IMG/VR virus record: IMGVR_UViG_2698536484_000013
Coordinates: 1-17,868 of that record
Length of the DNA: 17,868 bases
Reading direction: 5' to 3' (one strand)
DNA from: a virus
Taxonomy: Duplodnaviria > Heunggongvirae > Uroviricota > Caudoviricetes
The notes under the pieces were generated by a model that saw nothing but the letters and a program-made list of their open reading frames with translations, was not told where the DNA came from and did no database searches. Both the position numbers and the translations under genes were made by a program. Every line of letters begins with the position of its first letter. Position 1 is the stretch's first letter. Shown in pieces: positions 6,984 to 8,201 of the stretch.

Positions 6984-8201
6984 TTATCCTTTCCGTTTAC
7001 GGGCTTCGTTAATTTGTGTCTCAAGAATGCTTCGCGCCTGCGCAGTGGCAGCGGCCTTGTCCATTCCCTGACTCATGAAAAACTTTATGAGGTTGTTCGC
7101 CTGCGTTTGCAGGGCTTTTTTGAGAGCGTCGGCTTCAGCGCGAGCCTGGGCTTCCCTCTCCCGCGAGGCTTTTAGTTCGGCATTCTTCCTGTTTGCCGTG
7201 GTGCGAGCTTTTTTTAACAACCGGCGAACGTTGTCCGTGGCGCTATCTTTGGCGCGTAGTTTTTTGCCTAATGCATCCTGAGATTTCAGATACAGCTCAT
7301 ACTCACGCGCAGCTTTAGCCTGATCCGTCGTTGTTGTCCGGTTGCGCGCGAGCGATTTAGCCAGTTCACCTTTGAAATAGGTTGTTGTCTTCCGCTTGTC
7401 ATCGCCGAAGGCTACCTGTTCAGCTGCTTTTTCCAGGGCAATAATGATGGCCTTGTGCCATGTGGGAGACTGAAAACGTGTCATAGCGTGCAAAACATGT
7501 TTGCAAGCCACACCTGTCAGATCAGGGTTGCGGATTTTGGGGAATGCATACTCTTTTGGCGGCGCGACAGCATAGTTACCAGCCGTGGCCATATAACGAT
7601 ACCAGTATTGATGGCGTCCACAATCACAGTCGAAAGATACCCGGCCCTTGCAGAGATCGGCAGCGATTCGGGCTTTTTTCGCACCGTCTTCAGCAATTTC
7701 CTCAACGGCTTTATCCCATTCCTCAAATCGAATTCTGACACGGTGATGCTGGTGTACCGACTCATCCGAGGCATTAACAGATATCAATGCAAGGTTGTGT
7801 TTTAGCCCGAGGAATGTCGCGGCTTTGATCCCTGTGCCATCAGAAACTTTGTTGTTAGCGCGTTTTATATCAATGCTGGTGGACTGCGCCACCAGCTGAG
7901 CATAGGTAATGCCTGGTACCGTGCTCTTGAATTTGGTTTTATGAGCCTGCCTTGAGGTGTTGAAACTGCGTATATCTTCGGGCGTAAAGTAGGTGCCATC
8001 TTTCTTTTTCCCAAGGCTGAGGAATGCCTCAAGTTCGCGGTTACGCATCCCCATAATCCTTGGGGTGAGTGTACGCCGCGCGTTTCGCCGATTCTGACGC
8101 TGCTGTTTACGGATAAGATCGAAGACCTTGTTAAAGTCTTTTGCACTTAATCCATCAGTCTGATAGCGACCAAGGTTGTCGCGAGCATATTCAGTTGGCA
8201 T
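6984..8201 (-). CDS. Basic protein with CxC...CxH (SWIM-like) cysteine/histidine cluster and C-terminal coiled coil
   Basis: 405 aa, lysine/arginine rich; central FDCDCGRHQYWY...GVACKHVLHAM; C-terminal ~100 aa of heptad-like Ala/Lys/Glu/Arg repeats; GGGA SD; 9 nt after the upstream stop. Confidence 0.8.
   Translation of the reverse strand: MPTEYARDNLGRYQTDGLSAKDFNKVFDLIRKQQRQNRRNARRTLTPRIMGMRNRELEAFLSLGKKKDGTYFTPEDIRSFNTSRQAHKTKFKSTVPGITYAQLVAQSTSIDIKRANNKVSDGTGIKAATFLGLKHNLALISVNASDESVHQHHRVRIRFEEWDKAVEEIAEDGAKKARIAADLCKGRVSFDCDCGRHQYWYRYMATAGNYAVAPPKEYAFPKIRNPDLTGVACKHVLHAMTRFQSPTWHKAIIIALEKAAEQVAFGDDKRKTTTYFKGELAKSLARNRTTTTDQAKAAREYELYLKSQDALGKKLRAKDSATDNVRRLLKKARTTANRKNAELKASREREAQARAEADALKKALQTQANNLIKFFMSQGMDKAAATAQARSILETQINEARKRKG

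What the first reader, a model, noticed from the sequence alone, without database searches (positions are those of the whole stretch)
6984..8201. Basic 405-aa protein combining a SWIM-like Cys/His cluster with a long C-terminal coiled coil
The cluster FDCDCGRHQYWY...CKHVLH has the CxC...CxH order of SWIM-type zinc fingers but a longer spacer of about 38 residues. With the lysine/arginine-rich composition this suggests a nucleic-acid-binding or scaffolding role, possibly an internal virion or injection protein or a tail-length-related protein.
Basis: seen in the sequence. Interest (0 to 1): 0.4.

Follow-up and report, generated by a model that had tools for sequence, protein, structure and literature searches.

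The report
P1 gene 25: zinc-finger tail protein
The flagged ORF is gene 25 ("tail stability") of a bacteriophage P1-type phage-plasmid; its Cys/His cluster is a real, invariant SWIM-type zinc-finger variant, but how this protein, which no P1 virion structure has placed, helps build stable tails is still unknown.

Summary
The ORF is real but lies on the minus strand (6984-8201). It is gene 25 of a P1-like phage-plasmid, 99% identical to P1 and annotated "tail stability".

**C-terminal tail.** It forms long, basic Ala/Lys/Arg-rich helices. It is variable in sequence and shows no significant heptad pattern, so it is not a demonstrated coiled coil.

**Context.** The late operon 26-25-7-24-6-5 is conserved. 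The LysM plug gene 26 abuts gene 25 in 57 of 78 bacterial loci.

**Function.** Published P1 cryo-EM places every other product of this operon but not gp25. Mass spectrometry found two peptides. I infer a sub-stoichiometric zinc-stabilised assembly factor, or a low-copy internal tail component. It is not a tape measure. No homology to T4 gp2, gp26 or gp51 was detected.

Interest is moderate.

The parts
6984..8201 (-). Gene 25 CDS (405 aa, gp25, 'tail stability'). It differs from P1 reference gp25 at two residues (S86A, V348E).
   Evidence: Full-length match to phrog_1722 'tail protein', E = 4e-227.
8085..8144 (-). Arg-rich N-terminal helix (aa 20-39, KDFNKVFDLIRKQQRQNRRN).
   Evidence: AF2 helix 20-39. 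R38 is invariant and the RRxAxRTLTP consensus holds in close homologs. Less conserved in distant members.
7416..8024 (-). Conserved core (aa ~60-262): helices, a three-stranded sheet (125-159), and the zinc module.
   Evidence: pLDDT mostly above 90. This is the region shared with distant phage homologs and with small SWIM-type phage proteins by Foldseek.
7620..7628 (-). First zinc half-site, C192-D-C194, at the end of strand 187-192.
   Evidence: Invariant.
7506..7619 (-). Conserved 38-residue spacer (aa 195-232): helix 195-208 plus a loop carrying GRHQYWYRY...E217...FPKIRNP...G230. It is the most conserved stretch of the family.
   Evidence: R196, E217, P221, N225 and G230 are invariant at about 20% identity. 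Spacer length is 36-43 in 133 of 133 representatives.
7497..7505 (-). Second zinc half-site, C233-K-H235, at the N-terminus of helix 234-242.
   Evidence: Invariant C, K and H.
6987..7334 (-). Variable basic Ala/Lys/Arg-rich helical tail (aa 290-405), ending in a small helical segment that resembles a SHOCT domain in some relatives.
   Evidence: AF2 helices. No significant heptad signal. Variable length and sequence: 93-288 residues follow the CxH motif across the family. Weak SHOCT hits in 2-3 members.
8211..8588 (-). Gene 26 (LysM-type baseplate 'plug'), the most constant upstream neighbour of gene 25.
   Evidence: phrog_1269. Named 'plug' in P1 cryo-EM. Abuts gene 25 in 57 of 78 genome loci.
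6252..6980 (-). Gene 7 (neck 'stopper'), immediately downstream. Its start lies 3 nt after the gene 25 stop.
   Evidence: A 4-nt or 1-nt stop/start overlap occurs in 13 of 17 diverged loci.
3837..6283 (-). Genes 24 (tail terminator), 6 (hub) and 5 (spike): the rest of the operon.
   Evidence: Synteny.
8618..8636 (-). Late promoter LP26 (-22 box AAATGACTA at 8628-8636; -10 TAGAAT at 8618-8623), which drives 26-25-7-24-6-5. The C1 operator O26 lies at 8661-8677.
   Evidence: Annotation of AF234172 transferred by coordinates. The -22 box, -10 box and operator are identical in the window; one mismatch lies between the boxes.

Best explanation
**Shown.**
- The ORF is gene 25 of a P1-type phage-plasmid.
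- It is transcribed late with the plug (26), stopper (7), terminator (24), hub (6) and spike (5) genes.
- Its conserved core carries an invariant CxC...CxH motif of SWIM type, interrupted by a conserved helix-loop insertion of about 29 residues.
- This core is followed by a variable, strongly basic helical tail.

**Inferred.**
- The four invariant residues bind one zinc ion. The zinc holds the conserved YWYRY...FPKIRNP loop in shape as a docking surface.
- gp25 is not one of the ordered, symmetric building blocks of the virion. It acts in sub-stoichiometric or transient fashion while the tail is being finished.
- It most likely helps the plug-hub-wedge junction, or the terminator/neck end, to lock correctly.
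- Without it, tails are made but the sheath fires prematurely, giving the 'tail stability' phenotype.
- A few copies may stay trapped in the particle.
For: **Identity.** 99% nucleotide and 99.5% amino-acid identity to P1 gene 25, annotated 'tail stability'.

**Late operon.** The LP26 promoter boxes are conserved.

**Zinc motif.**
- The ligand residues are invariant.
- Weak SWIM Pfam matches occur in 13 of 27 distant members, and in P0132 the match spans both half-sites.
- The AF2 model has mean pLDDT 89.4 and pTM 0.76.
- Foldseek probability is 1.00 to small phage proteins, including two named 'SWIM-type domain-containing protein'.

**Module membership.** The order 26>25>7>24>6>5 holds in diverged viral and bacterial loci, and 26>25 persists in the most distant lineages.

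**Not an ordered structural subunit.** The 2026 P1 cryo-EM paper states that it identified almost all proteins from head to tail. It builds gp26, gp7, gp24, gp6 and gp5 and never mentions gp25. Two other P1 structure papers also omit it.

**Low abundance.** Two peptides, 8.4% coverage, in virions.

**Essential by genetics.** Amber mutants exist, and the CRISPRi study lists gene 25 among the known essential genes that the screen missed.
Against: - No experiment or homology assigns an activity. HHpred found nothing in 2022, and I found no solved structural relative beyond the zinc module.
- The mass-spectrometry signal equals that of gp7 and gp16, which are genuine six-copy components. Meanwhile gp5, gp26, PmgA and UpfC went undetected. 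gp25 could therefore be a real low-copy virion protein rather than a chaperone.
- The mutant phenotype rests on the database annotation. I could not read the original EM study.
- CRISPRi knock-down reduced plating only about 10-fold.
- Tight gene junctions are general to the operon and not specific to gene 25.
Confidence: 0.5

Rival explanations
1. gp25 is a genuine low-copy internal virion protein. Its SWIM body sits in the neck or at the top or bottom of the tube. Its basic helical tail lies in the electronegative tube lumen alongside the tape measure Sit, and it leaves the particle with Sit and the DNA at infection.
For: - Two peptides were found in purified virions. That equals gp7 and gp16 (six copies each), while several three- to six-copy proteins were not detected.
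- The tube lumen and the TMP are unresolved in the cryo-EM maps, and a low-resolution density sits in the baseplate centre.
- The tube lumen is reported to have the same charge property as the T4 lumen, one that aids DNA ejection. gp25 has a net charge of +34.
- Its absence from symmetric maps is what an asymmetric or flexible occupant would give.
Against: - No density or cross-link places it there.
- Two peptides can be carry-over, and the authors themselves leave both options open.
- The tail region is poorly conserved and varies in length (93-288 residues after the CxH motif).
- There is no signal peptide, transmembrane segment or lytic domain that would suggest a role after ejection.
Confidence: 0.25
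2. gp25 is P1's DNA-end-binding and protecting protein, a functional analogue of T4 gp2 or Mu N. It binds the genome end in the neck, is needed for productive head-tail joining, and enters the cell with the DNA. If so, it might be the unidentified protein that, by my recollection of the classical literature, holds abortively transduced P1 DNA in a circle.
For: - In T4, genes 4 (head closure), 2 (DNA end protector) and 3 (terminator) lie next to 53 (LysM) and 5 (spike). This is the same functional set as P1's 26-25-7-24-6-5, which leaves gp25 in the gp2 slot.
- gp25 is very basic, with an Arg-rich helix and a SWIM finger, a domain type found in some DNA-binding proteins (domain function from general knowledge).
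- gp25 shares its 'tail stability' annotation with the neck proteins gp7 and gp24.
Against: - There is no homology to T4 gp2, which has no cysteines; hhalign probability is 0.2%.
- The most persistent neighbour is the baseplate plug gene 26, not a neck gene.
- No DNA-binding data exist.
- The abortive-transduction link rests on memory only; I found no citable source in the library.
Confidence: 0.1
3. gp25 is a distant relative or direct counterpart of the T4 gp26/gp51 hub-assembly chaperones (Pfam PF12322). These are cysteine-containing proteins required to build the hub but not seen in the finished baseplate.
For: - The T4 gp26 family has invariant C82, C84, C187 and C190 (CxC...CxxC).
- There is a local resemblance, WxCxCG...WY...G...YPKI against FDCDCG...WYRY...G...FPKI.
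- Both genes lie beside the gp27-type hub gene.
- By my recollection, T4 gp26 was not placed in the solved T4 baseplate, as gp25 is not placed in P1.
Against: - Profile-profile comparison gives only 2.6-2.8% probability, confined to 15-54 columns around CxCG.
- The second half-site differs in kind and distance: CxxC about 100 residues away, against CxH 38 residues away.
- Overall size and secondary structure differ.
Confidence: 0.08
4. gp25 is a tape measure or tail-length determinant, or a nucleoid-type transcriptional regulator, as the 'MvaT' label on the Xanthomonas phage Rb1 homolog suggests.
For: - Long helices and a lysine/alanine-rich tail.
- The Rb1 homolog is annotated 'transcriptional regulator MvaT'.
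Against: - Sit (1140 aa) is the P1 tape measure.
- About 110 helical residues cannot span a 245-nm tail.
- The P1 record annotates gene 6, not gene 25, as 'tail length'.
- Pfam finds no MvaT or H-NS domain. The label most likely reflects the low-complexity tail.
- The gene is late and embedded in a structural operon in all lineages examined.
Confidence: 0.03

Closest known systems
Bacteriophage P1 gp25 ('tail stability' protein; AAQ14053; phrog_1722)
   Same: It is essentially the same protein: 403 of 405 residues are identical, with the same operon, the same late promoter boxes and the same C1 operator.
   Different: It has two substitutions (S86A, V348E). The host element is a P1 variant with different cargo upstream of ban.
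SWIM zinc finger (Pfam PF04434; PROSITE SWIM-type)
   Same: - The ligand order is CxC...CxH. The first pair ends a beta-strand and the CxH starts a helix.
- The local sequence G-V-A-C-K-H-V-L is typical of the SWIM second half-site, by my knowledge of the family.
- Weak HMM matches span both half-sites.
- The structural neighbours are SWIM proteins.
   Different: - The spacer is 36-43 residues, because a conserved helix plus loop of about 29 residues is inserted.
- No member reaches Pfam's gathering score, and P1 gp25 itself gives no hit at E <= 0.1.
- The inserted loop, not the finger, is the most conserved element.
Small uncharacterised phage SWIM-type proteins (e.g. A0A514CSJ7 of Achromobacter phage Motura, A0A482MLT0 of Burkholderia phage BcepSauron, A0A2H4IBE8 of Erwinia phage Y3)
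   Same: The predicted fold of the gp25 core matches over 160-240 aligned columns, with Foldseek probability 0.99-1.00 and target-normalised TM 0.37-0.61.
   Different: - They are 139-290 aa and lack the N-terminal helices and the long basic tail.
- Sequence identity is 12-21%.
- Their function and genomic context are unknown and were not examined.
T4 gp26/gp51 baseplate hub assembly chaperones (PF12322)
   Same: - They are needed for tail morphogenesis and are encoded beside the hub gene.
- They have invariant split cysteine sites beginning with CxCG.
- By my recollection, T4 gp26 was not placed in the solved T4 baseplate.
   Different: Homology is not detectable: 2.6-2.8% hhalign probability. 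The second half-site and the protein size also differ.
T4 gp2 DNA end protector / Mu N
   Same: It occupies a comparable position in a cluster of LysM, spike, head-closure and terminator genes, and it is a basic protein.
   Different: There are no cysteines in T4 gp2 and no sequence or profile similarity. No DNA-end binding has been shown for gp25.

Membership tests
P1 gp25 / phrog_1722 'tail protein' family | Full-length sequence similarity to P1 gene 25 product | tested here: met
   99.5% amino-acid identity to AAQ14053. phrog_1722 match at E = 4e-227 over residues 1-405.
P1 gp25 / phrog_1722 'tail protein' family | Position in the late operon 26-25-7-24-6-5 | tested here: met
   Same gene order in the window. 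The order is conserved in 25 viral and 26+ bacterial diverged loci.
SWIM zinc finger (PF04434) | CxCxnCxH ligand signature, conserved across homologs | tested here: met
   C192, C194, C233 and H235 are invariant. The signature occurs in 133 of 133 representatives.
SWIM zinc finger (PF04434) | Compact spacing between half-sites. The Pfam model is 38 positions long. From memory, the canonical n is roughly 6-25. | tested here: not met
   The spacer is 36-43 residues. In P0132, 55 residues align to 26 profile positions, so about 29 residues are inserted.
SWIM zinc finger (PF04434) | Score above Pfam's gathering threshold | tested here: not met
   P1 gp25 gives no hit at E <= 0.1. Among distant members the best E-value is 0.02; in P0132 the score is 13.9 bits (E = 0.041) against a cut-off of 19.6.
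SWIM zinc finger (PF04434) | Beta-strand(s) carrying CxC followed by a helix that starts with CxH; fold similarity to SWIM proteins | tested here: met
SWIM zinc finger (PF04434) | The four ligands lie close enough in space to bind one zinc ion; zinc is actually bound | not testable with these tools
   Model coordinates are not exposed. Metal content needs purified protein.
Tape measure protein | Helical length proportional to tail length (about 1.5 A per residue); usually the longest tail protein | tested here: not met
   The helical tail is about 110 residues, against a 2450-A tail. Sit (1140 aa) fills this role.
Coiled-coil protein | Significant heptad (a/d) hydrophobic periodicity | tested here: not met
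   For residues 290-405, 910 of 2000 shuffles reach the observed maximum and 162 of 2000 reach the observed mean. This was my own simple score, not COILS or MARCOIL.
T4 gp26/gp51 hub assembly chaperone (PF12322) | Profile similarity to PF12322 members | tested here: not met
   hhalign probability is 2.6-2.8%. No Pfam hit.
T4 gp2 DNA end protector | Sequence or profile similarity to T4 gp2 | tested here: not met
   hhalign probability is 0.2%, and T4 gp2 has no cysteines.

The most novel reading that the evidence does not exclude
gp25 is a zinc-finger protein that rides in the P1 neck or tube lumen bound to the genome end and is injected with it. It would be P1's counterpart of T4 gp2 or Mu N. 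It would also be the long-unidentified protein that, by my recollection of the classical literature, holds abortively transduced DNA as a protected, non-covalent circle. This would give a molecular handle on the abortive to stable outcome of P1 generalized transduction.
Probability: 0.07. Interest if true: 0.75.

Novelty: new variant of a known kind. Interest (0 to 1): 0.38.

Why it matters
**Why P1 gp25 stands out.**
- P1 is a workhorse of bacterial genetics. Its relatives are common antibiotic-resistance-carrying phage-plasmids: this gene is present in 490 of 5,426 complete *E. coli* genomes.
- gp25 is the only product of the 26-25-7-24-6-5 operon that recent near-atomic virion structures could not place.
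- The 2022 study found no informative homology for it.

**What this analysis adds.**
- The core of gp25 is an invariant SWIM-type zinc module with a conserved inserted loop.
- Its constant partner is the baseplate plug gene.
- Together these turn 'unknown tail stability protein' into a set of direct experiments: ligand and loop mutants, zinc analysis, pull-downs with gp26, gp6, gp24 and gp7, and targeted localisation.
- The analysis also defines a family of about 600 clusters that no Pfam or NCBIfam model currently covers.

**Limit.** It does not by itself reveal a new mechanism.

Tried and rejected
1. **Programmed read-through.** Genes 25 and 7 are in the same frame in the window, separated by the stop codon plus one codon. 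Only 2 of 17 diverged loci keep the frame, so a gp25-gp7 fusion is rejected.
2. **Specific translational coupling of 25 to 7.** Stop/start overlaps occur in 13 of 17 loci, but tight junctions are general across the operon, so this is not specific evidence.
3. **Homology to T4 proteins.** T4 gp2, gp4, gp3, gp53, gp28 and gp51 all give hhalign probabilities below 1%. A T4 gp26 family profile gives 2.6-2.8%.
4. **Is phrog_4597 a divergent gp7 stopper?** This is the gene after the gp25 homolog in phages ABMM1, Rb1 and a Vitreoscilla prophage. hhalign gives 0.8% with only two sequences on one side, so the result is inconclusive.
5. **Searches of solved structures.**
   - Sequence searches with the single protein and with a profile found nothing relevant.
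   - Foldseek against the PDB found nothing significant. A run of kinase entries at E > 0.3 and TM about 0.1 is noise.
6. **AFDB50 fold search.** The library was not available.
7. **Other databases.**
   - NCBIfam has no model.
   - Pfam scans of the longer family members found no extra domains.
   - A relaxed PHROG scan of the isolated core found only phrog_1722, phrog_4315 and a weak phrog_18980, none with a known function.
8. **Canonical coiled coil.** The heptad test was not significant.
9. **Literature.**
   - The original P1 genome paper and the Walker & Walker EM paper are not held.
   - No paper in the library uses the phrase 'tail stability protein'.
   - No citable source was found for the abortive-transduction end-binding protein.
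10. **First viral-contig scan.** It returned only P1 itself. It was replaced by a scan centred on distant members.
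Full report
**What is at the coordinates**

- The 405-codon ORF at 6984-8201 is on the minus strand.
- Its DNA is 99% identical to gene 25 of bacteriophage P1 and to P1-like phage-plasmids such as RCS47, SJ46 and P7.
- The protein differs from P1 gp25 (AAQ14053) at two residues.
- The P1 record annotates gene 25 as 'tail stability'. It places the gene in the late operon 26-25-7-24-6-5, downstream of late promoter LP26 and the C1 operator O26. The promoter boxes and the operator are identical in the window.
- The gene occurs in 490 of 5,426 complete *E. coli* genomes, almost always on plasmids.
- The object is therefore a long-known gene. What was not known is its molecular nature. 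HHpred gave 'none >50%' in the 2022 P1 proteome study. Pfam and NCBIfam have no model for it. Only PHROGs covers it (phrog_1722, 'tail protein').

**Checking the observation**

- *Composition.* The protein is strongly basic, with pI 10.1 and net charge +34.
- *Motif.* FDCDCGRHQYWY...CKHVLH is present, with exactly 38 residues between C194 and C233. The protein has four cysteines in all. Only 5 of 20,000 shuffles give a CxC-x(5-60)-CxH pattern.
- *Conservation is the stronger argument.*
  - C192, C194, C233 and H235 are invariant in 89 homologs.
  - They are also invariant in an alignment of representatives sharing about 20% identity.
  - An exhaustive profile search found 601 clusters (50% identity) at E <= 1e-3. 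All 133 full-length sequences among the best 150 carry CxC-x(36-43)-CxH.
- *The spacer.* The stretch between the two half-sites is the best-conserved part of the family. It reads GRHxYWYRY...E...FPKIRNP.L.G, with R196, E217, P221, N225 and G230 invariant.
- *The C-terminus.* AlphaFold2 predicts long helices at 294-316, 320-377 and 382-404.
  - My heptad test is not better than shuffles.
  - The region is Ala/Lys/Arg-rich and variable in sequence and length.
  - Some relatives end in a weakly SHOCT-like segment.
  - 'Basic helical tail' is the safe description.

**Is it a SWIM finger?**

| Test | Result |
|---|---|
| Pfam SWIM on P1 gp25 | No hit at E <= 0.1 |
| Pfam SWIM on 27 distant members | Weak hits in 13; best E = 0.02, below threshold |
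| Where the match falls in P0132 | Residues 194-248 on profile positions 12-37 of 38. This covers CxC (197) and CxH (ends at 240), so about 29 residues are inserted |
| AF2 model quality | Mean pLDDT 89.4, pTM 0.76 |
| Model topology | CxC at the end of strand 187-192; CxH at the start of helix 234-242; helix 195-208 and a loop in between |
| Foldseek against the PDB | Nothing significant |
| Foldseek against viral predicted structures | Probability 0.99-1.00 matches of the core to small phage proteins; two named 'SWIM-type domain-containing protein' |

- I conclude that the core is a SWIM-type zinc module with a conserved insertion.
- It meets the ligand signature and the fold criteria. It fails the spacing and HMM-threshold criteria.
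- The actual ligand geometry and the metal content could not be tested.

**Context**

- In 25 diverged viral contigs the order gp26 > gp25 > gp7 > gp24 > gp6 > gp5 is kept, sometimes with inserted ORFs.
- In 80 bacterial loci the full order appears 26 times. The hosts span Enterobacterales, Vibrionales, Pseudomonas, Moraxellaceae, Burkholderiales, Desulfovibrionaceae, Desulfobacterales, Geobacteraceae and a few other MAGs.
- In the more distant lineages the pair gp26 > gp25 is what persists. A gp26-type gene abuts gp25 in 57 of 78 loci.
- In the ABMM1, Rb1 and Vitreoscilla lineage the order is: small gp26-like gene, gp25-like gene, phrog_4597, phrog_1014 (annotated as capsid protein in Rb1), then the sheath.
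- All contexts examined are phage or prophage.
- Gene junctions are tight throughout the operon.

**What the literature adds**

- The 2026 P1 cryo-EM study assigns gp26 as plug, gp7 as stopper, gp24 as tail terminator, gp6 as hub and gp5 as spike. It states that almost all proteins from head to tail were identified. gp25 is never mentioned.
- The 2022 proteome found two gp25 peptides (8.4% coverage). This equals gp7 and gp16, while gp5, gp26, PmgA and UpfC were not detected. The authors leave open a structural or a cofactor role.
- A CRISPRi screen lists gene 25 among the known essential genes (amber mutants exist) that knock-down missed; efficiency of plating was 0.11.

**Most likely mechanism**

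- *Shown:* identity, late co-expression with tail and neck genes, the invariant SWIM-type motif, constant linkage to the plug gene, and absence from the ordered virion maps.
- *Inferred:*
  - The four ligands bind zinc and present the conserved loop as a docking surface.
  - gp25 acts in sub-stoichiometric or transient fashion during tail completion, at the plug-hub-wedge junction or at the terminator end.
  - Its absence therefore leaves tails that fire prematurely.
- I put about 0.5 on this package.

| Rival | Confidence |
|---|---|
| True low-copy lumen or neck protein that is ejected | 0.25 |
| DNA-end binder analogous to T4 gp2 or Mu N | 0.10 |
| Counterpart of the T4 gp26/gp51 hub chaperones | 0.08 |
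| Tape measure or regulator | 0.03 |

- The T4 comparisons were tested and gave no homology. They remain analogies only.

**Verdict**

- This is a known gene with a newly recognised domain identity.
- The SWIM-type finger with a fixed insertion is a variant of a known kind, embedded in a family that is uncurated outside PHROGs.
- It is of moderate interest. It is the unplaced member of a well-studied phage's tail and neck operon, and it now comes with specific testable residues. No new mechanism is demonstrated.

Noticed in passing
window 211-1038 (+), 1066-1141 (+): A 275-aa lipoprotein with an SPFH/Band-7 domain (Pfam E = 1e-30) lies upstream of a tRNA with anticodon CAT and the ban helicase. 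The P1 reference carries the tciA-tciB-tciC cassette at this position. The same variant occurs in RCS47, MH422554 and other P1-like elements, so this is a cargo swap at a known variable spot.
   Followed up: partly
window 6978-6986 (-): Gene 7's ATG is in the same reading frame as gene 25, separated only by TAA plus one codon. Across diverged loci the frame is not conserved (2 of 17), so this is coincidence rather than programmed read-through. The usual junction is an ATGA or GTGA overlap.
   Followed up: yes
L163 5425-9687 (phage T4): T4 clusters genes 4 (head closure), 2 (DNA end protector) and 3 (terminator) divergently from 53 (LysM plug) and 5 (spike). This is the same functional set as P1's 26-25-7-24-6-5, although T4 gp2 and P1 gp25 are unrelated in sequence.
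   Followed up: yes
L244 3803-4429 (T4 gene 26); alignment A4: The T4 gp26 hub-chaperone family has four invariant cysteines (C82, C84, C187, C190; CxC...CxxC) that look like a split zinc site. I have not seen this discussed. The local 'CxCG...WY...YPKI' resemblance to gp25 is not statistically supported.
   Followed up: partly
L003 6767-7888 (Xanthomonas phage Rb1) and PMC13478112: The gp25 homolog of phage Rb1/GYRb1 is annotated and discussed as an 'MvaT/P16 nucleoid-associated transcriptional regulator'. The paper reports it as the region most similar between GYRb1 and ABMM1. The label is probably an artefact of the Lys/Ala-rich tail, because the protein carries the full gp25 core and CxC...CxH motif.
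   Followed up: partly
L002 5699-6247, L003 7893-8396, L240 10876-11376: An uncharacterised family of 166-182 aa (phrog_4597) always follows the gp25 homolog in the ABMM1, Rb1 and Vitreoscilla lineage. It sits where P1 has the stopper gp7, and it may be a very divergent stopper. hhalign could not link them.
   Followed up: partly
window 8983-9561 (+), 9725-10911 (+), 13920-14426 (+): PmgM gives a sub-threshold VRR-NUC Pfam hit and matches a PHROG family annotated 'Holliday junction resolvase'. PmgO and PmgP are overlapping paralog-like ORFs with weak MptE-like matches. 'Pap' matches the PNKP-type HAD phosphatase domain rather than a classical acid phosphatase. The 'putative morphogenetic' names of this block look outdated.
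   Followed up: no
model ma5c989a52615 against the PDB: The non-significant Foldseek PDB list is dominated by protein and lipid kinase folds (PI3K, PAK2, p38, APH, choline kinase) at E = 0.3-3 and TM about 0.1. I treated this as noise and did not examine it further.
   Followed up: no
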